Assembly (NCBI GenBank): GCA_038087875.1
Contig: CM075994.1
Span: forward strand, 6,202,001 to 6,266,000
Source: Malacoraja senta
Taxonomy: Eukaryota
Direction of reading: 5' to 3'
Length of the DNA: 64,000 bases
Shown piece after piece: positions 9,022-49,180 of the stretch. The notes under the pieces are model-generated. The model searched no databases. It was not told where the DNA came from and was given only the letters and a program-made list of their open reading frames with translations. The translations under genes and the position numbers were made by a program. Within the stretch, counting starts at the first letter, position 1; each line of letters begins with the position of its first letter.

Positions 9022-10073
9022 CCTGTAAACTAGCGTGACAGATTCTCATTACCAGATCTCTGAGTCTGATAGTGATATAGCCAATCCAGTGTCACCAACA
9101 ATTCACCCTTCTCAGAAGCAGGACCAGGTTTCGCTGGTCGGTGTTGAAGGGCCTGTTTCCATGCTGTATCTCTAAACTAAATTAAATTTAAAAGCTATTA
9201 GTTCCAAATGATAATCATTTTGTACAAAAAAATGTTCTCTTTCATCACTTGTGCCTTCTGCCCATTATCTATCCTCTAGCCCTGGAAACCTGCCAATGGA
9301 AAAATCATCTTAAAGGCTGCTGACATTTTGCCCAGTGGCATAAAATATTCAGTGCACTTCCCAACAACCCTTTGAGCTTCATATGCATTAGAGAAATTTA
9401 GTTTAGTTTAGAGATACAGCACGGAAACAAGCCCTTAGGCACACCGAGTCTGTGCCGACCAATGATCTCCGTACACTAGCACGATCCTACACTCCAGGGA
9501 CAATTTACAATTTTTACCGAAGCCAAATTATCATATACGAACAGGCTTTGCTGTGTGGGAGGAAACCAGAGCACCCGGGGAAAACACATACGTCACGGGG
9601 AGAACGTACAAACTCCGTACAGACAGTACCCGTAGTTAGGACTGAACCTGAGTCTCTAGCACTGTTAGGCAACAACTCTTTCGTTGCGCCACCAAAACCA
9701 CCCTGGTTGCACCAGGTTGTGAGAACCAGTTTAGTAAACTATTCATCAATGGTACAATCTAGAGGGAATGGTGGAAAAAAGATTTCCTCAAATATAAATA
9801 GTAATTCCAGAGTGACATCAATGTTGTTGAACTTGAATGATTCCCATCCCTTACAGCCAAGCACTGACTAATCCACAGATAGGACCAGTTGGAATGAAAT
9901 AGCAAAGTAAACATTGTAGGTTTACACTCAAGGCTTCACATTCCTGTAAACCATTGATCCATTTATGACCTGACCCGATCCATCAGAAGGAGTTTGACTT
10001 GGAAAGAAAGGAAATTAAAAGCCTTGACTATTCCTGAATAGTGTGCTTGGAGTGAAAAGATAAAGCCACAAAC

Positions 10074-10364
10074 CTTCATGGGCAGGACAGAGCTCTGTTA
10101 GATCCACGCTCCGCGTCTCCTCACTAACAGGGTTCTCCACGGTGCAGTTGTACACGCTGTTGTTGTTGGGTAGAGCTATGGATAGTGCCAGCCTTCTCCC
10201 TTCGTCAGTCAGTATGTGCGATCCATCTGCCGTGACCTTGCCATCTCCTGACCACCAAGTGTAGACTGGCTCAGTGCCGTGCTCCAATGAACATACCAAG
10301 CTAACGTTACACACCCCGTCAGTGAAGGTTTCACTGACATTTATTACTGGTAATGACACTCGTT
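10074..10364 (-). CDS. CD2/SLAM-family receptor, IgC2 domain exon
   Basis: ERVSLPVI..CNVSLVC..PVYTW..YNCTVENPVS..LCP: four-Cys SLAM-type C2 domain with the NPVS motif. Acceptor aaacag|, donor G|gtttgt, phase 1-1. Confidence 0.92.
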
Positions 10365-10979: not shown

Positions 10980-11309
10980 CATAAATCGTCAGTTCTGTCA
11001 CTTGTTCATGGACAGCCAGAGTCGTCCTTAAGTTCATTTCATATAGACCTTGATCATGTTCTGTTAGGTTCTGTATTTCCAGACTACAGTCCTTCAGGTT
11101 TAACCTGATACGCTGTTTGTTATATTGTATTGGATTGTTTTGACTTTTCACGCATAATTGAACCTTTTCTGTTGTTGGAGAACTTTTGTAATCCCAAGTA
11201 AGGATCAAAATATTTTCTCCTGAGATACATCCTGGTAACGTGACTGACTGTCCCAGTGTCCCTTTCACCAAGCGACGAGTGCCTGGTTTCCCAGCAGTCT
11301 GTCCCAGAC
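10980..11309 (-). CDS. CD2/SLAM-family receptor, IgV domain exon
   Basis: GTLGQSVTL..W..RI..SLEIQNLTEHDQGLYEM..LTIY: V-set domain lacking the F-strand Cys, as in CD2/SLAM N-domains. Acceptor ttctgtttcag|, donor G|gtaatc, phase 1-1. The splice gives the junction IY-ERVS.P. Confidence 0.92.
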
Positions 11310-12008
11310 CTGAAACAGAAGGACAAGATATTAGTGCCATCACCTCTGGGGTGTTATTGTCCATAGTTTCCCAGCACAGCAGTGAATTGTCCCAACCCTA
11401 ATGGACAAGGGCAGCAGGCACATGAGTATTCCACCACCCATACAGGTGAGGCTCTGAATGAATAACAGAAACATAAAAAGTAGGTACAGGAGGAGGCCAT
11501 TCGGCCCTTCGAGCCATTCAATATGATTATGACTGATCATCCACAATCAGAACCCTGTTCTGGCTTTTTCTCCATATCCCTTTTTTCCCTTAGCCCTAAG
11601 AGCTGCATCTAACTCTCTCTTGAACACATCCATTGAATTGGACTCCACTGCCTCTGTGGCATAGAATTTCACAGATTCACAACTCTCTGGGTGAAAAGGT
11701 TTTTCCTCATCTCAGTCCTAAATGGCCTACCCCTTATTCTTAAACTGTGGCCCCTGGTTCTGGACTCCCCCAACATCAGGAACATTTTTCCTGCATCTAG
11801 CCTGTCAAATCATTTAAGAAATTTATATGTATCTTGCATTTATCTTGCATGGGTGAAAGCAGGCTGTCAATTCATGCACATTGTCGCTGAAGGGTCCGTT
11901 CCTGTTCTGCACACTTCCATGTGGAATGATGGCGCCTCTCGCATATTTACTACCCTCTGTAGCCTTTGTAACAAAACACTGCTTTATCCAGATCAGAGGC
12001 AATGAAGG

Positions 12009-15000
12009 CAGGGCTGCCAACTCTCAGCTTTGAACATGAGAATCACTCATTTGGACAAATTCTCACGCTCTCACGCTGATCACAAATTTCTCACGCTCTG
12101 TCGTGAGAAATTATGTGATCAACGAAAATTTCAAAACTCATATAAACTGCATGGGCCCGCGGGTGTTGGAGAGCCGGGGCTGGAGCAGCGGCGGGGACAG
12201 ATGCCGGGAGCGGGGCTGGCGAGTGTTTGCCGGGCTGGCGAGTGTTTGCGGGCTGGCGAGTGTTTGCCGGGCTGGCGAGTCGCTCACTGCAGCTCCAGCC
12301 ATGGAGCAGCCTCAGTGCAAGAGTCCTGGGCTGTCGGAGGCGTCGGAAGCGTTGCGCCGCTGCCGTGAGAGACTCTGTGCCAAATTCGCCCAGGTGACCG
12401 GCATGGATCAGGCTGCGGCTCGGTGCATCCTGAAGGATAACCAGTGGCTGCTGGAAGTAACTACCAAGCACTGGGTAGAAACGGTGGAAGATAGTGGACT
12501 TCAAATGGGAGTGGTTGGATAAAGCACCCTGCTTGACTGCTAGATTTTCACTTACTGTAACTGCATGTTCCCGAAGTTGGGGGAGTTCAGAACCAGGGGT
12601 CAAAGTTTAAGAATAAAGGGTAGGCCAGTTAGGACTGAGATGAGGACAAACTTTCTTCACGCAGAGAGTTATGAATCTGTGGAATTCTCTGCCACAGAAG
12701 GCATTGCAGGCCAATTCACTGGATGTTTTCAAGAGAGAATTACATTTAGTTCTTGGGGCTAATGAAATCAAGGGATATGGGGGAAAAAACAGGAAAGAGG
12801 TACTCTAAAGAATGTACATTTTAGATGAACAACCATGATCATATTGAATGGCAGTGCTGCACGTATTTTCTATGTTACTATGCTTGAGTATATGGCAATA
12901 AAACTTGATCACTTGATTTTGAAGCATTCATGCATGGTGGAGGTATAATGTAGTCATAGAGTGATACAGTGTGTAAACAGGCCCTTCGGCGAAATTGCCC
13001 ACACCCGCCAACATGTCCCAGCCACGCTACCTGCTTTTGGTCCATACCTCCAAACCTGTCCTATCCATGTATCAGTCTAACTGTTTCTTAAATGTTGGGA
13101 TGGTCCCTGCCTAAACTACCTCCTCTGGCAGCTTGTTCCAACCACCCACCACCTTTTGTGTGGAAAAAGTTACCCCTTAAAAAGTTACCTCTTAAAACTA
13201 CTTCATACAAAAAACATTGAAATCATACTTCTACAATGCACTAAAACATGATTTTAATACATCAAATTTCAAAAAGTCCCTACCCTGGGAGGGGGGACAC
13301 CCTACTTCAACATCCTCTCCCCACTCGGTTCCTCCACTACCTCACCGGGTACCCCCAAGGCCAGTGATCAGTGATCGCTCAGTCTCCCAACTTTCAAAAA
13401 CGCTCCGCGGCCCCTGGTTCAGACGGAGAACACTGCCAGATGTGAGCGGGGAACTGAGGCCAGTTGTCCGTGATGTCTGGATCCCAATGCTCAGTGCTTC
13501 ATGTTTCGGAGTTGGCTAATGTTATTGATTTGTAATTAGCCTAATTTGTAATTAGTTGACAAAAGCTTAATTTATTAATCCGGAATATCCAGGGGGATAG
13601 GATAAGTGTAATATTAAAATGACATGCAAGGTGTCGGTCTGTCTGTCACAACATACAGCCCCGATAACCCATTATTTCCTTCAGTTATATATTGGGAAGG
13701 TAGCACTATTGTCATTTGCCACTCAACTATTATGTTTGTTTAACTCACTGACAATTTCTAACCCCCCCCCCCCCTATTCCTTTGACAGGTTGAATAGAAA
13801 TGTCCCCGATCTCATTGTTTTATTAATTCAACACGTAGATGAACATCCTCAAGGAGTGTAATCGGATGGAAACTGATTCAGATGCGATATTTAAGAGCTT
13901 GTTGAAAGAAGGGGCATATTTTAAAGGAGTGATAGAGATACTTGCAGGGGAATGTGTGAGGAGATTATTATTTGTCTTTAGTTTTAACTTGAACCAGGAC
14001 ATCTGTAGATTCAAAGTTTAATATAGTAATTGTGCTGATACTGACTCTAACCAACCACGTAATGAACATCATCCATTCCGGAGGTTTTATTTTTCTGATG
14101 CCATTTAAACTTCACTTGGATTTCAATCACTTCAATGTAAAAGTAATTGGGAATGGGGAGCATTGGAACAAAATTTTGCCCTCGGTACATATTAACTGTA
14201 ATATAATAATGTATGCATGTTGATATGTGCAATCGAAACAAAGATCTTTTTACCATTGTTGTGTTATGAATACCGCTGAAATATGTTCTCTCAAGATCAC
14301 ATTAAATAGAATATTATTGCTTAAATATATAGTTATTGGACTTTGCATTTCGGAAAAGTCCCAGCTGAGAGGAAGACAGTAAAATACTGAAAATATTGGG
14401 GGTGAAAATGACTTCAGGACAGTTTGTTAGGAAAATGAAAGAAATGGTAACAGAATATTTATACAGCTGAGTGAGTATAATTTTATGGATGCGAAATCGT
14501 GTTCAACCAATTGATGACTTCTTTGACAACGTAACTAGCATGTTAGATAACAAGGAAGCCAATGGATGTAGCAAATTTTATTATACATAATTTGGTCTGT
14601 GCAGTGCCCCATAAAAGATTACCGCATTAGATAAGCACCTGTGGACTTGAACGTAATAGGTTAAGTCCAGGGAGTCAGATATGGGGCTTTATGTGTGGGC
14701 CAGATATATTGTCAGTGCAGAGGAGCTAGGAGCAAGGCCAAGTGTGCATCCAGAGTCAAGGTCTGGAATAGTACTAGGTGTGCAGTCAAAGCTGGGACAA
14801 TGGGAGTGTTCAGCACTGGGAACCTAAGCAGGTAAGCAGCTATGATCAGGGTAGAATAGGGGGCGAAGTGTAAGGCTGGACTCAGGGTCAAGAATGAGAG
14901 AAGGTATGCAACTGGAGTCAGGGTCAGGAGTAGTACCAGGTGTGCAGTGAGACCCAGGTTGGTCAACATGGGCCAAGTGTTTGATTATAATCTGATTTCC

Positions 15001-15332
15001 ATACATGAATATACTAGGATCATTCATGTGCTGCACGTGTTGATCAGAGCCTGGGCTGTACTGTGGAATGTAATTAGGAATGTAATTTAGTCTAACCTTA
15101 TTCATAGCAAATCCAAATTAAAGCATATATATTGCATTCAAGTGTAAGTTAAAAGACTCGCTATTATATGCACCATATTGCACAATTTCAAGCTGAAAAA
15201 TGCAAAAGTTCCGTACCAATGGGAGGGGGGGGGGACCCTCCTCCCACACCCTCCCCCCCGGTCAATACGCTCCCTCGGCTTGGTCTCTTGCATTTTCTCA
15301 CTCCCAACTCTCACCCAATGTTGGCAGCCCTG
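12009..15332. mobile_element. Putative non-autonomous hAT-like DNA transposon with captured host sequence
   Basis: Perfect 13-bp TIR CAGGGCTGCCAAC (12009-12021) / GTTGGCAGCCCTG (15320-15332) with subterminal TCTCAC repeats at both ends. The 8-bp flanks AATGAAGG / GGTGAGGG match at only 5/8. Confidence 0.55.
12301..12456 (+). pseudogene. TDP2: Isolated TDP2-like first coding exon (UBA-like domain)
   Basis: gccATGG start. RERLCAKFAQVTGMDQAAARCILKDNQWLLE resembles the TDP2 N-terminus as recalled (RRLLCVEFASVASCDAAVAQCFLAENDWEME). Donor GAA|gtaact. No further TDP2 exons recognised in the window. Confidence 0.65.
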
Positions 15333-24242: not shown

Positions 24243-25260
24243 TGTTAGGTTGATCCACTTCACAGCTCTCTGTTTGCAGCCCTGTCAAAGACATGCAAAA
24301 AGTGATAAGGAGTTCTGCTCCTCTGCCTTTTTACAGATACTGCAACTCATTGAATTAATCTAGCTCTGGCAGAACTACTTGAGTTAAGATACTTAATTAG
24401 CTACAATCTAATTAAACAGTAGAACAGAGATAGGCACAAAATCAAGTCATGTCAAGAGAGTTTATTGTCATGTGTCCCAGATAGGACAATGAAATTCTTG
24501 CTTGCTGCAACACAGAATATTGCAGGCATAAATACAGAACAGATCAGTGTGTCTATATACCATAGACCATATATATACACATAAATAAACAGATAAAGTG
24601 CAATAGGCTGTTCTTGTTCAGAGTTTGTTTGATGTTGTATTTAATAGCCTGATGGCTGTGGGGAAGTAGCTGTTCCTGAACCTGGATGTATCAGATTTCA
24701 AGCTCCTGTACCTTCTACCTGATGGCCATGGAGAGATGATGTGGGTCTTTGATGATGTTGGCAGCCTTTTTGAGGCAGCGACTGCGATAGATCCCTTCGA
24801 TGGTGGGGAGGTCAGAGCCGATGATGGACTGGGCAGTGGTCACAACGTTCTGCATTCTTTTCCGCTCCTGGACGTTCAAGTTGCCGAACCAAGCACGATG
24901 CAACCGGTCAGCATGCTCTCTACTGTGCACCTGTAGAAGTTCGAGAGAGTCCTCCTTGACAAACCGACTCTCCATAATCTTCTCAGGAAGTAGAGGCGCT
25001 GATGTGCTTACTTTATAATTGCATCAGTGTGCTGAGACCAGGAAAGATCTTCGGAAATATGCACGCCCAGGAATTTGAAGTTCTTGACCCACTCCACCAT
25101 CATCCCGTTGATATAAACGGGATTGTGGGTCCCTATCCTACCCCTTCCAAAGTCCACAATTAGTTCCTTGGTTTTGCTGGTGTTGAGAGCTGGCACCATT
25201 TGGTCAATTGGTCGATCTCACTTCTATACTCTTACTCGTCACCATCAGTGATTCGTCCCA
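24243..25260 (-). repeat. Left arm of a ~1 kb inverted duplication (Rex1-like LINE 3' part plus flank)
   Basis: Reverse complement of 25673-26703, apart from a 13-bp deletion and about three substitutions noticed. Confidence 0.92.
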
Positions 25261-25555
25261 TGTTTCGGGTTGAGACCCTTCTTCAGACTCAGTCTTGATC
25301 CGAAACATCACCCATTCCTTCTCTCCAGAGGTGCTCCCTATCCCGCTGAGTTACTCCAGTATTTTGTGTTTATCTTCGATTTAAACCAGCATCTGCAGTT
25401 CCCTCCAACACACGCTGGAGAAAATAGGCGGGCCAGGCAGCATCTCTGGAGAAAATGACATTTTGGGCGGGACTGAATGTCTCAAGAAAGGTCCCCGACC
25501 CGAAATGTCACCTGTCCATTTTCTCCAGAGTTGCTGCCTGACCCGCTGAGTTACT

Positions 25556-26503
25556 TGGGAGCACCTCAAGGCTGCGTGCTCAGCCCCCTGCTGTACTCAC
25601 TCTATACTCATGACTGCGTAGCCGGACATAGTGCGAACTCCATCATCAAGTTCGCCGACGACACCACTGTTGTGGGACGAATCACTGATGGTGACGAGTA
25701 AGAGTATAGAAGTGAGATCGACCAATTGACCAAATGGTGCCAGCACAATAACCTGGCTCTCAACACCAGCAAAACCAAGGAACTAATTGTGGACTTTGGA
25801 AGGGGTAGGATAGGGACCCACAATCCCGTTTATATCAACGGGATGATGGTGGAGTGGGTCAAGAACTTCAAATTCCTGGGCGTGCATATTTCCGAAGATC
25901 TTTCCTGGTCTCAGCACACTGATGCAATTATAAAGTAAGCACATCAGCGCCTCTACTTCCTGAGAAGATTATGGAGAGTCGGTTTGTCAAGGAGGACTCT
26001 CTCGAACTTCTACAGGTGCACAGTAGAGAGCATACTGACTGGTTGCATCGTGCTTGGTTCGGCAACTTGAACGTCCAGGAGTGGAAAAGAATGCAGAACG
26101 TTGTGACCACTGCCCAGTCCATCATCGGCTCTGACCTCCCCACCATCGAAGGGATCTATCGCAGTCGCTGCCTCAAAAAGGCTGCCAACATCATCAAAGA
26201 CCCACATCATCTCTCCATGGCCATCAGGTAGAAGGTACAGGAGCTTGAAATCTGATACATCCAGGTTCAGGAACAGCTACTTCCCCACAGCCATCAGGCT
26301 ATTAAATACAACATCAAACAAACTCTGAACAAGAACAGCCTATTGCACTTTATCTGTTTATTTATGTGTATATATATGGTCTATGGTATATAGACACACT
26401 GATCTGTTCTGTATTTATGCCTGCAATATTCTGTGTTGCAGCAAGCAAGAATTTCATTGTCCTATCTGGGACACATGACAATAAACTCTCTTGACATGAC
26501 TTG
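25556..26503 (+). mobile_element. 5'-truncated Rex1/Babar-like LINE, inactivated
   Basis: [62 protein letters not shown]. Contains an in-frame stop and frameshifts, and ends in a (CTTGA)-like tail. Confidence 0.9.
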
Positions 26504-26703
26504 ATTTTGTGCCTATCTCTGTTCTACTGTTTAATTAGATTGTAGCTAATTAAGTATCTTAACTCAAGTAGTTCTGCCAGAGCTAGATTAATTCAATGAG
26601 TTGCAGTATCTGTAAAAAGGCAGAGGAGCAGAACTCCTTATCACTTTTTGCATGTCTTTGACAGGGCTGCAAACAGAGAGCTGTGAAGTGGATCAACCTA
26701 ACA
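25673..26703 (+). repeat. Right arm of the ~1 kb inverted duplication
   Basis: Pairs with 24243-25260 across a 412-bp spacer. Confidence 0.92.
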
Positions 26704-32857: not shown

Positions 32858-33599
32858 TGTCACATGCTATTTGAGTCACCATACAACCATACAAGTAAAA
32901 AGAACACAATACACAATAGAATTTAACATTAACATCCACCACAGTGGAATCAGCATTCTTCACTGTGATGTAAGGCAATAAAGTTCAGTCATCTTCTTCC
33001 TCTGTTCACCCGTGGTGGGGTCTTGAATCCTCCGCAGTCGCCGCTACAGATGTGCAGGCCCTCTCGTCGGGATGACCAAAACTCCGGCGTCGAGACGGAT
33101 CGGAACACACTCCGCGGCTTGGAGTTCCCGAATCAGCCGCTTCTTACCGGAGACCGCGGCTTCACGATGTTAAAGTCCACAGGCCCCGCGGTCGGAATCC
33201 GCGCCGCGCCTGGAAGCTCCGCAGCTGCTCCACAATGTTAAAGTCAACAAGCACCCATGGTCAGAGCTCCAACACTGGTGATCATCAGCAAAGGATCCCA
33301 GGCTCCGCGATGGTAAGTCCACTGCGCCTGCTGCTTGAAACTCTGGGCCGGTCTCCGGACTGGAAAGGCCGCACCAAACCAGTTGTTAGGCCGCGAGGGG
33401 GCCGAATATGCGACATGGAAAAAAGTCGCATCTCTGTCAAGGCAAGTGACTGAAAACGGTTTCCCCCTATTCTCCCCCACCCTCCGCATCAGACATACCG
33501 AGAAACATTAAAACATAGATTTAGACACACTAAAAATAACAAAAAATGTCGACAAAAACACATGAGCTGCTGGTGAGGCTGCCGCTTGCGGTGCCACCC
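32858..33599 (-). mobile_element. Non-coding retroelement, same type as 4907-5600
   Basis: Head gggtggcaccgc..gcagcctcaccagcag, plus the shared 3' block (cacagtga..gtggtggatgtt..gtgacaataaa). Confidence 0.6.
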
Positions 33600-45000: not shown

Positions 45001-48000
45001 CTTTTTTATTTTTTTATTTTTTTAAGAAAGAAGTAGTGAAAAGTAAAGAAAAGTCTAGTGAGTGTGAAATAAAGAAAATAAATAAGTAAGAAAGTGAAGC
45101 AGAAAGGAGATTCTCCCTCGCCACGTCGATGCTTTTTTATGTTCTTAATCATTTTTCACCCAAACCCAGAATTTGTTAATTTTACAATACTATTGCACCA
45201 CATGAATCCACAAGGTCAATAAATGGAGACCAACTCGTTAAGAATTGGTCTTGTTTATCTATTAGGAGGAGTCTCATTTCTTCCAAGTGGGCAGTTTCCA
45301 ACATATTACCAATCCACATTTTGAGTGTTGGTAAAGTAGCATTTTCCAAAATTTAAGTATGAGTTTTTTTGATGTTTTTAAACCATAATTAAAAAATGAA
45401 ATTTGGGATATATTTAATTTGTTTCCATCTCCTATTACTCCGAAGATAATCATTTCCATATTAGGTTCCATTTTTATCTTAAATAAACTAGTAAATATAT
45501 CAAATATATCACACCAAAATCCATGAAGTTTTGTGCAAGAAACGAAAGAATGTGTGATATTGGCATTTTGAGAAAGACATTTATCACAGATGGGAAAAAT
45601 ATTTGAATAAAATTTATTCAACCTAACTTTTGAATAATATAATCTATGTAATATTGTAAATTGAATTATATTATGTCTAGCGTTAATCAAACATTTATGT
45701 ATATATATCAAATACCTCTCCCATGTTTCTTTAGGAATTTTTGTCATTAATTATTTTTCCCAGTCTTCACTAATTGCCTCTGTTGATGGCAATTCTCTAT
45801 TAAGAATACTATTATATAAATATGATATTATTTTTTGTGAGTCCGCCTTAATATTCATTGCTTCTTCCAGTGGGTCTATCATTATGCTCTGTAGTCTTGG
45901 TATATATTTTTTTATAAAGTCACATATCTGTAAATATTTAAAGTATTGGTTATTATTCAGATTAAATTTTGATTTTAATTGTTGAAATGATAATAAATTT
46001 CCCATTTCATACATGTCACCCACCTTTTTAATTCCCAATCTTTCCCATTGTCTATATGTTTTATCCATAAAAGATGGTTTAAATACCGGATTATTCACTA
46101 TTGGTGTTAATGATGATAAGTTCCTTAATTTTAAAGTTAATTTTATTTGTTTCCAAATTCGAATTATATTATGTATAATTGGATTCTTCTTATATAATGT
46201 ATTATTCAATTTTATCGGGGAGAAGAGGATCGCTCCTAAATCGTACGGAAAACAATCCTCTTTCTCCATTCTTATCCATTCCATCTGTTGAGAAGGGCCA
46301 TCCAACCAATAAATGATATTCTTAATATGCACTGCCCAATAATAATATAAAAAATTAGGCAGTGCAAGTCCCCCTACATCATTAGGTTTACACAGATGAT
46401 TTATTTTAATTCTATGTGCTTTATAGTCCCAAATAAAATTAGTAATATTAGAGTCTAGTTTTTTTAAGAAATATTTTGGTATATATATTGGTATGGATTG
46501 AAATAAATATATTATTTGTGGTAGAAATATCATTTTTATAGCATTTATTCTGCCAATTAATGATAATGGCAGCGATTTCCAAAATTTAATCAGACCATTC
46601 ACTTTATTTAATAAAGGACTAAAATTAGCATTAAATAATGATTTATATCTTCTCGTAACTTGAATACCTAAATATTTAATTTTTTCCGTTGCAATTTTAA
46701 ATGGAAATTTTAATAGATGATTCGCTTTCTGGGGCTGTAATGACATAATTTCACTTATTCCAATTTATTCTATATCCAGAAAAAGAGCCAAATTCCTCTA
46801 TTACGTTTAGTAAATTCGGGATACTCATTTCTGAATTTCTAATATATAAAAGTATATCATCAGCATATAATGACATTTTATTATTAGAGTCCTTAGTATT
46901 ATATCCCTGAATATTCGGATGTGTTCTTATCCTTTCAGCCAAAGGCTCTATCATAAGGGCAAATAGCAGGGGTGATAAAACACATCCCTGCCTATTGCCT
47001 CATGATAATTGGAATTTTGGAGACAACATATTAGGTTTATCATATAATAATTTCACCCATCTAATAAAATTATCTCCCATATTAAATTTTTGGAGTACTA
47101 AATATAAATACTGCCACTCTACCTGATCAAATGTTTTCTCTGCATCCAAAGATATAACTGATAAGTCTTCCTTTTCCACTTTATGTGAATACATTATGTT
47201 AAAAAGTCGTCTCAAATTATTAAATGATTGTCTTTTAGGTATAAACCCCGTTTGGTCCGGTTTTATCAATTTATTAATATATTTACTCAATCTTCTTGTT
47301 AAAATCTTTGCTAACATTTTTTGATCTGTATTTAAAAGTGATATAGCTCTATACGAGCCCGGATCTTCTAGATCTTTATCTTTTTTTGGTATAAGCGTAA
47401 TTGTAGATTCTGCTAAAGTTTCTGGTAATTTCTTTTCGGTAAAAGCATAAGTATATAATTTAAGTAATCGTGGGACCATTAACTCCTGAAATCTTTTATA
47501 GAATTCATTATTAAAACCATCGGGCCCTGGTGTCTTCCCGTTTTTCAGTTCTTTTATTGTTTCTCTTATTTCTTCACTTGTGATCTGAGCTCCTAATTCC
47601 TCTTGTTCTAAAATATCCAATTTTTGCAAATTACAATTATCTAAAAAATTTATGTTTATTGTCTTCTATTTTAGTTTTAGATGTATATAAATTTTGATAA
47701 AATTGAGCTAACCTTTTATTAATATCCTTAGGTAAAGTTAATAGTTCCCCGTTCTCTGATTTGATTTTAATAATTGTTTTTTCTTTTTCTTGCTTCTTCA
47801 ATTGTCGTAATAGAAGTTTATGTGGTTTATCCCCAAATTCAAACTGTACTTGTTTTGTGATCTGAAATAATCTTATTACTCTTGCCGATAATATTCGATT
47901 AAGTTTAAATTTCAATAATGTGATCTTATTATGTTTATCTATAGTTGGGTCTTTTGCGTTACCTAATTCTAATAATTTAATTTCCTTTTCTAACGTCCAT

Positions 48001-48140
48001 TGTTCTGTCCTGTTTTTTTTAATTTAGAAAACTTTGATATGAAATTATAACTCCACGGATGAATGCCTTTAAAGATTCCCATAATAGAGATGGTGAAATA
48101 CCTGGTGTCTCGTTTGTCTCAAAAAAAAATTTCATTTGCT
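45001..48140 (-). mobile_element. AT-rich L1-clade LINE ORF2, frameshifted and 5'-truncated
   Basis: KTPGPDGF, YRAISLLN, QTGFIP, SLDAEK.FD, LYADDIL, KYLGI, GGLALPN and the C-terminal CxxC..H..C across several broken ORFs. A-rich tail near 45001. Confidence 0.9.
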
Positions 48141-49180
48141 GTTTTTTTGTTTGTTTTTGTTTTTGTTTATTTTATTAGAAGTTAATACAATACAAAACAA
48201 TACAGTGGCACCTAATTTTAGGTGCCAACTATGTCATAACGTAATGCATTCTATGTACAACCTCTAGTTTTATGTTTTTGAAAAGGAGGTAAAAAATAAA
48301 AAAAAGAAAGAAAAAAATAGAGAAAAGAAAGAGGAAAAATAAATAGTAGAAAATAGAAAAACGTGAAGTGTGTATATAAGAAAAGAAAAAAATAGAAAGT
48401 AGAAATAGTAGAAAAAGACCCTTAAAAAATAAATTTTCAAATCTTTGTTTGGAGATGTAAATCTATCCACGACCTGACCTGAAATCAGTAATCTTGACGG
48501 TACTGCTGCATCACATGATTCCAAAAAGTCGATGAAAGGGGACCAACTCCTTAAGAATTGGTCATATTTATCTATTAGGCGGAGTCTCATTTCTTCAAGA
48601 TGTGCTATGTCCGTCATATTCCTAATCCACATTTTAATAGTTGGTATAGCTGTATTTTTCTAAAATTTAAGTATCAATTTCTTTCCAATTATTAACCCAT
48701 AATTAAAGAATACTTTTTGGTCTTTGTTTAAATTGATATCTTCTAATATTATTCCAAATATAATCCATTCCATATTAGGTTCTATTCTTGACTTGAAGAG
48801 CTTTGTAAATATATCAAATATATCGCTCCAAAATGTATTCAACTTTGTACATCCTACAAATGAATGTGTTATATTGGCATTTTGAAACAAACATTTATCG
48901 CATCTGGGAGAGACATTTGGGTAAAATTTATTCAACCTCGTTTTTGAATAATATAGTCTATGTAATAATTTAAATTGCATTAAATTATGTCTTGCATTAA
49001 TGGAACAATTATGTGTATTCATCAGATACTTTTCCCATCTATCTTTCGGGATCTTTACCATTAGTTCATGTTCCCAATCTTCTCTTAGTGCCTCTGTTGA
49101 GGGTAATTCTCTATTTAATATACTATTATAAAAATATGATATTAGTTTTTGTGAATCAGCCTTAATATTCATTGCTTCTT
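48141..49180 (-). mobile_element. Second L1-clade 3' fragment
   Basis: ORF 48660-49172 is paralogous to 45274-45870 (MNIKADSQK..CDKCL.QNANITHSFV.C). It has its own 3' UTR and an A-rich tail at 48141-48175. Confidence 0.88.

What the first reader, a model, noticed from the sequence alone, without database searches (positions are those of the whole stretch)
12009..15332. hAT-like transposon carrying a TDP2-like first exon (Pack-TIR candidate)
Seen: a perfect 13-bp TIR pair encloses a CpG-rich segment with a strong Kozak ATG (12301), 52 open codons and a GT donor, with no transposase recognised. Known: the peptide pattern LC..FA.V...D.A.A.C.L..N.W..E matches the UBA-like N-terminus of TDP2, a 5'-tyrosyl-DNA phosphodiesterase (from recall). 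Inference: a DNA transposon captured the 5' end of a DNA-repair gene and moved it into an intron of an immune receptor, antisense. It could act as a mobile promoter/first-exon module. Caveats: the TSD matches only 5/8, and a second end-like motif (...CCGCGGCCCCTG) lies at ~13416, so the right boundary is uncertain.
Basis: partly seen in the sequence, partly recalled or inferred. Interest (0 to 1): 0.8.

Follow-up and report, generated by a model that had tools for sequence, protein, structure and literature searches.

The report
Nested transposons spreading TDP2's first exon
In what is likely a ray or skate genome, the start of the DNA-repair gene TDP2 sits at about a thousand places, most of them inside one jumping element nested in another; it was likely captured once and then carried along as decaying cargo rather than as a working gene switch.

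Summary
The peptide is TDP2 exon 1: 78% identical to skate TDP2, with two 7-exon host genes on contig C19. The 3.3-kb element belongs to a family with 1,026 exon-intron junction matches.

It is two transposons. An inner hAT element (5-bp TSD, autonomous parent found) swapped its transposase for about 1.2 kb of the TDP2 5' end. One copy then jumped into an unrelated-looking outer element (TIR CAGGGCTGCCAAC, 6-7-bp TSD, transposase not found), which spread it further. The "second end" at 13416 is the inner element's right TIR, and 15332 is the true boundary. The 5/8 "TSD" is not the family's TSD.

Intermediates survive: 20 copies with the undeleted exon, nested copies keeping the inner TSD, and an empty outer element. 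The exon decays neutrally (corrected dN/dS about 1.0), CpGs decay, and no splicing at the donor was seen in one polyA run of a related species.

This is a multicopy Pack-TIR, far above published TIR copy numbers and anatomically like bat HelibatN3. This scan noted similar captures of other genes in other shark and ray genomes (unchecked notes).

The parts
12009..15332 (+). Whole composite non-autonomous DNA transposon (outer element with a nested TDP2-carrying hAT)
   Evidence: colinear full-length copies with distinct flanks and TSDs
12009..12021 (+). Outer left TIR CAGGGCTGCCAAC
   Evidence: a 21-nt motif starting with it occurs 1,314 times exactly in G000
12009..12149 (+). Outer element 5' end with TCTCACGC subterminal repeats; the first ~90 bp are shared with sister elements that lack TDP2
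12150..12157 (+). CATGGGCC: remnant of the inner hAT's left TIR at a ~350-bp deletion junction; older copies keep the full left end
12160..12300 (+). Captured TDP2 5' UTR / promoter-proximal CpG island, with a 19-bp tandem expansion
   Evidence: alignment to host TDP2a and TDP2b
12301..12456 (+). Captured TDP2 coding exon 1 (52 codons, N-terminal part of the UBA domain), with a 24-bp in-frame deletion relative to the host gene
12457..13177 (+). Captured start of TDP2 intron 1, including two old retroelement fragments (about 12565-12852 and 12952-13177) that also lie, in the same order, in host intron 1
13190..13416 (+).
   Evidence: shared with stand-alone inner elements and with transposase-bearing L447 and L444
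13417..13421 (+). GTTCA: right copy of the 5-bp TSD made when the inner element inserted into the outer one
   Evidence: left copy kept in L368, L370, L383, L424, L436; single copy in the empty outer element L392
13422..14980 (+). Outer-element interior of unknown origin; holds an acceptor-like site (AG at 13787-13788) and a 55-codon ORF with no informative homologue found
14981..15332 (+). Outer element 3' end shared with sister elements; right TIR at 15320-15332
10980..11318 (-). Ig V-set exon of the neighbouring receptor gene (antisense to the element)
10072..10364 (-). Ig C2-type exon of the same gene; joined to the V exon in one contig of run X1

Best explanation
The stretch is a TDP2-carrying hAT element nested inside a second DNA transposon, and it likely arose by one gene capture, one nested insertion and then passive amplification of cargo that now decays neutrally. 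Step 1 (structure shown; repair mechanism inferred): a ~4-kb hAT element with 5-bp TSDs lost its transposase region, and the gap was filled with ~1.2 kb copied from the TDP2 5' end, most like paralogue TDP2a, probably by template switching during break repair. Step 2 (shown): this ~2-kb Pack-hAT transposed on its own, and the exon lost 24 bp in frame. Step 3 (shown): one copy inserted into a non-autonomous element with other ends (6-7-bp TSDs), leaving the TSD GTTCA. Step 4 (structures shown; order inferred): deletions removed the inner left end, so the cargo could move only with the outer ends; that composite, and later forms with an extra 5' unit, likely make up most of the ~1,000 copies. 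The outer transposase acted in trans and was not identified. The window copy is a step-4 element lying antisense, probably in the first intron of an Ig receptor gene.
For: Host genes TDP2a and TDP2b, 7 exons each, on C19. The element is colinear with host UTR, exon 1 and intron 1, including the intron's retroelement fragments. 34 of 48 paralogue-diagnostic sites side with TDP2a, 13 with TDP2b. Stand-alone inner elements: 7 of 11 with both ends have an exact 5-bp TSD. Transposase-bearing parent L447, with relatives L444 and L442, shares the inner ends; L442's ORF hits PF14291 at E 1e-13. The undeleted exon occurs at 22 places, 2 of them the host genes. Nested copies keep GTTCA on both sides, and an empty outer element exists (L392/L452). 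Class consensus distance to TDP2a rises along the proposed order: 18, 20, 22, 28, 34 of 420. Junction count 1,026, control 0. Context-corrected dN/dS 0.99 over 66 copies, p 0.9. 165 of 796 exon CpGs decayed. Read depth does not drop at the donor in X24.
Against: Only 1 of 20 sampled empty-site matches was a full outer element; 19 belong to another repeat sharing ~140 bp. Within-class divergence is ~3% in all five classes, so ages do not confirm the order. A naive dN/dS gave 0.43-0.45 (p 0.0003) before correction for mutation context and shared variants. The junction microhomologies are short (3 bp, and 4 of 5 bp) and read by eye. The outer transposase was not found. The window copy has no TSD. 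The RNA test is thin: one raw run of a related species, about 6% read. Contig depth in X1 and X11 does fall past the donor, and X24 shows an unexplained sense excess at 13827-14200. Some loci are duplicates with identical flanks, so counts include redundancy.
Confidence: 0.85

Rival explanations
1. The cargo works as a mobile promoter / first-exon module: copies start transcripts and splice the UBA exon to the element's own acceptor at 13789 or to host exons, and this is maintained by selection.
For: Kozak ATG, CpG island and GT donor survive in 13 of 39 sampled loci, some of them chosen by protein match. The commoner subfamily has the consensus donor GTAAGT where the host has GTAGGT. An acceptor-like site lies downstream, with a sense read excess behind it in X24 (26-29 vs 3-8). 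The window copy keeps 15 of 21 CpGs.
Against: Corrected dN/dS is about 1, and stops occur as expected (7 observed vs 7.5). 11 of the 24 full exons scored are broken. 21% of exon CpGs are decayed, which points to germ-line methylation (inference). X24 reads cross the donor on both strands with no drop, and no joint or loose end is listed there (11 loose-end rows were not shown). The window copy's donor has lost its +5 G.
Confidence: 0.1
2. There is one transposon family only, and the 13416 motif is incidental internal sequence or a chance neighbour.
For: All 29 other top matches to the 13190-13418 stretch lay inside the composite. Both ends start with CA and share an ~80-bp internal motif.
Against: The inner element exists alone with its own TIRs and 5-bp TSDs, with and without TDP2. 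The outer element exists without it. The TSD lengths differ (5 vs 6-7). No exact 8-bp TSD was found in 45 pairs; one dropped copy with a damaged end, L060, had one.
Confidence: 0.03
3. The copy number is an assembly or segmental-duplication effect, or the exon spread as a retrocopy.
For: Several locus pairs have identical flanks (L037/L038, L064/L066, L156/L157, L313/L314, L339/L340, L328/L329), and the assembly has 6,182 contigs.
Against: Most sampled copies have distinct flanks with TSDs, lie on the large contigs and differ by ~3% from the consensus. The intron start is retained, which a retrocopy would lack. The element's whole length is also covered in runs from related organisms.
Confidence: 0.02

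Closest known systems
Multicopy animal Pack-TIRs, e.g. Pack-hAT-N8_XT carrying the CAPSL 5' UTR in Xenopus tropicalis, and Drosophila Ssk-FB4 (Tan et al. 2021, PMC8277862; passages and section 6 read, supplements not read)
   Same: Host 5' sequence enclosed by TIR-transposon ends, dispersed with distinct TSDs, far from the parent locus; hAT vehicle in the frog case.
   Different: The passages read report only four multicopy cases in vertebrate reference genomes among 370 Pack-TIRs, the frog example at three loci and Ssk-FB4 at four copies. Here there are about 1,000 copies, and the cargo changed vehicle by nesting in a second TIR element.
HelibatN3 and other promoter-carrying bat Helitrons (Thomas et al. 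2014 by recall of authorship, PMC4224331; passages read)
   Same: Same cargo anatomy (promoter, 5' UTR, first exon, partial first intron) amplified to about a thousand copies; that paper reports 5' ends as the commonest and most amplified captures.
   Different: Those are rolling-circle Helitrons; this one uses cut-and-paste TIR elements with TSDs.
hAT5 and hAT6 groups (as described in PMC12730594; passages read)
   Same: The inner element has a hAT transposase parent and 5-bp TSDs, as hAT5. The outer element's 6-bp TSDs recall hAT6.
   Different: No tree against hAT5 references was built. The outer element gives 6 and 7 bp about equally and has no known transposase.
Plant Pack-MULEs (known from the introduction of PMC8277862 and recall)
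   Same: Non-autonomous TIR elements that carry gene fragments and often composite cargo.
   Different: Different superfamily, and each captured fragment is usually low-copy (recalled).

Membership tests
Multicopy Pack-TIR | TIR-transposon ends on both sides of the captured sequence | tested here: met
   inner TIRs flank the cargo in stand-alone copies; outer TIRs flank it in the window
Multicopy Pack-TIR | Identifiable parental host locus for the internal sequence | tested here: met
   TDP2a and TDP2b on C19, colinear over UTR, exon 1 and intron 1
Multicopy Pack-TIR | Repeated transposition shown by distinct TSDs | tested here: met
Multicopy Pack-TIR | Microhomology at the capture breakpoints | tested here: inconclusive
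   3 bp on the left and 4 of 5 bp on the right, by eye, with no chance control
hAT superfamily (inner element) | Autonomous element with the same ends encoding a hAT-type transposase | tested here: met
   L447 has both ends around a PF14291 hit; L442's 846-aa ORF hits PF14291 (E 1.2e-13) and PF05699 (E 6.6e-4, below cut-off); L447 and L442 are ~90% alike
hAT superfamily (inner element) | Usual 8-bp TSD | tested here: not met
   5 bp in 7 of 11 stand-alone copies; 5-bp hAT groups are described
hAT5 group (inner element) | Transposase falls in the hAT5 clade | not tested
   no reference hAT5 transposases were at hand; only the TSD length agrees
hAT superfamily (outer element) | 8-bp TSD | tested here: not met
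   6-7 bp; 0 of 45 pairs exact at 8
hAT superfamily (outer element) | hAT transposase between the same ends | tested here: inconclusive
   no such end within 1.5 kb of the top 30 of 150 PF05699 hits or the top 30 of 92 PF14291 hits; no transposase in 111 ORFs, 109 of them from sister elements
P-element superfamily (outer element) | P/THAP9-type transposase between the same ends | tested here: inconclusive
   2 of 150 PF21787 loci were fetched; both hold one outer-type end as an internal feature upstream of the long ORF, and their own termini were not seen
TDP2 gene | UBA-like N-terminus | tested here: met
TDP2 gene | Catalytic phosphodiesterase exons 2-7 | tested here: not met
   tblastn of skate TDP2 finds only exon 1 in the element consensus; it is a fragment, not a gene
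Exapted mobile first exon | Purifying selection on the exon copies | tested here: not met
   corrected dN/dS 0.99-1.04 for the pooled 66 copies; single selected copies would not show in this pooled test
Exapted mobile first exon | Spliced transcripts from the donor | tested here: inconclusive
   none listed in X24, a related species read at ~6%; contig runs ambiguous

The most novel reading that the evidence does not exclude
These TIR families act as repeated collectors of CpG-island gene starts in cartilaginous fish: sister elements with the outer ends carry other CpG-rich, first-exon-like segments. Handing the TDP2 start to a more active vehicle seeded about 1,000 promoter-plus-UBA-exon cassettes, some now co-opted as promoters or first exons, or feeding small RNAs that act back on TDP2 itself.
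Probability: 0.15. Interest if true: 0.72.

Novelty: new variant of a known kind. Interest (0 to 1): 0.46.

Why it matters
Published surveys describe gene capture by cut-and-paste transposons in animals as mostly single-copy and rarely re-mobilised. This case reaches about a thousand copies. It also keeps nearly every intermediate: the autonomous parent, the first capture, the deleted form, the nested insertion with its TSD, the empty outer element and later composites. That makes it a clean natural record of how captured DNA changes vehicle and amplifies, and a large neutral-versus-exapted test set for whether moved promoters get used. It is also an annotation trap: about a thousand UBA-exon look-alikes surround two real TDP2 genes. 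No new molecular function is shown.

Tried and rejected
PF03372 search for host TDP2: returned a mass of endonuclease ORFs, many of 1,271 aa and likely LINEs; useless, replaced by a search with skate TDP2.

8-bp TSD model: rejected.

Naive dN/dS of 0.43-0.45: rejected, because it ignored CpG and transition bias and counted shared subfamily variants repeatedly.

Processed copy joining exon 1 to the 13789 acceptor: 0 matches in G000; weak evidence.

Chimeric proteins in the protein database: only read-through or upstream-extended element products (P0002, P0004).

55-codon ORF at 13839: no PDB, Pfam or database homologue except the element's own ORF (P0005) and one weak 17-residue match not pursued.

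Source locus of 13422-14980 and of the sister elements' CpG-rich segments: not found; top hits were all element copies.

Outer transposase: not found; the loci could not be cut.

The look-up of sequencing runs: no RNA holder listed; X24 came in only as a same-study run.

Leader exon of the Ig gene: one unverified candidate at 32956.

Literature: no listing described a TDP2-carrying transposon in searches; one search found no paper with the TIR motifs; the mobulid genome preprint has 0 mentions of TDP2. Repbase and Dfam could not be searched, so the families may already be catalogued.

No structure or complex prediction was run; none was needed.

Full report
OBSERVATION. The TIR pair, the ATG at 12301, the 52 codons and the GT donor are as described. 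The peptide matches UBA_4 (22.7 bits, cut-off 21.8), the human TDP2 UBA chain 6q00 and Leucoraja erinacea TDP2 (78%). The host is therefore likely a skate or ray (inference). The window is G000:C18:6202001-6266000. The element lies upstream of V-set and C2 Ig exons on the minus strand, which one contig of run X1 joins. The leader exon was not located.

A HIGH-COPY FAMILY. Searches with the 5' 552 bp, the 3' 433 bp, the middle and the peptide gave 2,860, 1,936, 1,245 and 1,985 first-look candidates; these are not copy numbers. A 29-nt exon-intron junction motif with up to 2 mismatches occurs 1,026 times, reversed control 0; by their sequence the two host genes fall within that count. The motif detects 50 of 56 sampled junction-bearing copies, which suggests roughly 1,150, with some duplicates. 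Many copies align over all 3,324 bp, so 15332 is the boundary. Median divergence from the consensus is 3.0% in the middle region (62 copies).

TSD. Among 45 end pairs: exact 6 bp in 11, exact 7 bp in 9, one-mismatch 7 bp in 5, one-mismatch 6 bp in 3, exact 5 bp in 1, one-mismatch 8 bp in 1, none in 15. In 1,980 mismatched pairs 98.5% gave nothing and none gave an exact 6 or 7. Dropped before counting: duplicates L038, L066, L157; damaged or edge-cut ends L019, L039, L045, L050, L054, L060, L061, L065; tandem loci L171, L172. L060 showed an 8-bp match and L054 and L061 6-bp matches. Nine of the 15 'none' copies have a GA-rich left flank. In two of them (L072, L073) and two more (L255, L257), an extra upstream 5' unit carries the true end with an exact 6-7-bp TSD. 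The window copy has no readable TSD.

THE PARENT GENE. Skate TDP2 maps to two tandem 7-exon genes on C19: TDP2a (exon 1 at 4712516) and TDP2b (4646618). Only exon 1 is in the element. Window 12160-13177 is colinear with host UTR, exon 1 and intron 1, including two retroelement fragments in the same order; the exon lacks 24 bp. The consensus differs from TDP2a at 8 of 156 exon sites, and 34 of 48 diagnostic sites side with TDP2a, 13 with TDP2b.

TWO NESTED ELEMENTS. Hits with host-length exons led to stand-alone ~2-kb elements with their own ends, CATGGGCCGCGGA ... TCCGCGGCCCCTG, whose right end is the 13416 motif. Of 11 stand-alone copies with both ends, 7 have exact 5-bp TSDs, 2 scored 6 bp (one from an end called a base short), 1 scored 3 bp and 1 none. 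The undeleted exon motif occurs at 22 places, 2 being the host genes. The inner left end occurs 137 times exactly; 18 of 30 sampled carry TDP2 (6 nested, 12 not) and 12 do not. The parent is a hAT: L447 (C6, ~4 kb) has both inner ends around a PF14291 hit and shares the sequence directly right of the cargo; it is ~90% like L442, whose 846-aa ORF hits PF14291 and weakly PF05699. The cargo (~1.2 kb) thus replaced the transposase region. Junction microhomologies are short and read by eye. No inner-element end lies in the 136 kb around TDP2.

NESTING. All 28 sampled older outer copies carry the inner left end at one site; three keep GTTCA on both sides, as do two more. The predicted empty site matched 1,168 times, but 19 of 20 sampled matches belong to another repeat. 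One, L392/L452, is a complete outer element with a single GTTCA and no TDP2. Window-type copies have since lost ~350 bp including the inner left end. Class consensus distance to TDP2a rises 18, 20, 22, 28, 34 of 420 from undeleted stand-alone to extra-unit composites, while within-class divergence stays 2.6-3.7% (class members were hand-picked from fetched loci). The order therefore rests on structure and shared changes, not on dates.

OUTER ELEMENT. Its 5' motif occurs 1,314 times. Only 6 of 30 sampled ends (first 50 Mb of C1) run into the TDP2 cargo; the others belong to sisters sharing ~90 bp on the left and ~360 bp on the right, often with two or three nested 5' ends and 6-7-bp TSDs. No transposase was found between or beside such ends. 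Two P-type transposase loci contain one such end internally, which is inconclusive.

FUNCTION. A naive count gave dN/dS 0.43-0.45. With expected rates taken from non-coding parts of the same 66 copies, CpG context modelled and shared non-CpG variants removed, it is 0.99 (p 0.9), with 7 stops observed against 7.5 expected. Of 39 loci, 13 exons were intact, 11 broken and 15 partial or cut. 165 of 796 exon CpGs are decayed. In polyA run X24 (a related organism, ~6% read, 85 reads laid), depth is 18.5/21.2 before and 18.2/22.4 after the donor on the two strands, with no joint or loose end listed there; 11 loose-end rows were hidden. Contig depth in X1 and X11 falls past the donor, which may reflect host TDP2 mRNA or contig breaks. 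X24 shows a sense excess at 13827-14200 that I cannot explain. The cargo is best read as a passenger; exaptation of single copies is not excluded.

COMPARISON. Tan et al. (PMC8277862; passages; section 6; supplements not read, and they may list species and copy numbers that bear on this) found 370 Pack-TIRs, with four multicopy vertebrate cases. Bat HelibatN3 amplified the same kind of cargo to a thousand copies, but is a Helitron (PMC4224331; passages). hAT5 and hAT6 TSD lengths come from PMC12730594 (passages). Paper searches were seen as listings only and showed no TDP2-carrying transposon; Repbase and Dfam were not searchable. This scan holds no look-alike sequence, but has unchecked notes on Pack-hATs with TPP2, TPR, QKI, GRIN3 and DNAH10 starts in other shark or ray genomes.

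VERDICT. A real Pack-TIR with about a thousand copies, a vehicle switch and a well-preserved history; no function shown. New variant of a known kind; interest 0.46.

Noticed in passing
G000:C19:4603402-4712516 (L098-L111): TDP2 is tandemly duplicated. The paralogues differ at only 2 of 156 aligned exon-1 sites, while TDP2b's exons 2-5 are clearly more diverged (57-76% vs 81-97% to skate), suggesting a homogenised 5' end.
   Followed up: partly
L101:1337-5275 (within a TDP2a intron): A sister element with the outer TIRs, three nested 5' ends and a 6-bp TSD (TTTAGT) sits inside TDP2a itself but carries no TDP2 sequence.
   Followed up: partly
L253 (element positions ~480-760), L246, L101, L245, L251: Sister elements carry other CpG-rich segments, one with a donor-like GG|GTGAGT and one with TGACGTC; possibly further captured gene starts. 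Sources not located.
   Followed up: partly
window 13789-14200: An acceptor-like site followed by a sense-strand read excess in polyA run X24 (26-29 vs 3-8); origin unknown.
   Followed up: partly
L454:1502-3808; L455: A young P/THAP9-type transposase family (two copies 97.6% alike, at least 150 hits, ORFs up to ~790 aa) with an outer-type end inside its 5' region.
   Followed up: partly
L213, L214, L216, L217, L220, L223, L226, L228, L234 (mostly small contigs): A subfamily with a shared ~620-bp insertion at consensus position 1683, and another with a ~350-bp insertion at 2473 (L221, L224, L235, L236, L238, L239); the composite kept amplifying after gaining insertions.
   Followed up: no
window 60787: TAGGGTTGCCAAC end of another, apparently truncated, TIR element.
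   Followed up: no
window 24284-26662: An inverted duplicate: near-identical 102-aa frames at 24715-25023 (-) and 25923-26231 (+), with mirrored motifs at 24284/26662.
   Followed up: no
window 11513-11785 and 12565-12852: The 80% inverted match across the element's left end is two copies of a common retroelement fragment, one inside the cargo; not a structural feature.
   Followed up: yes
window 45001-49000: A 4-kb block with GC 27-29% against ~45% around it.
   Followed up: no
L293 (G000:C1:295.53 Mb): A first-stage TDP2 Pack-hAT is inserted into what looks by eye like a decayed transposase-like frame.
   Followed up: no
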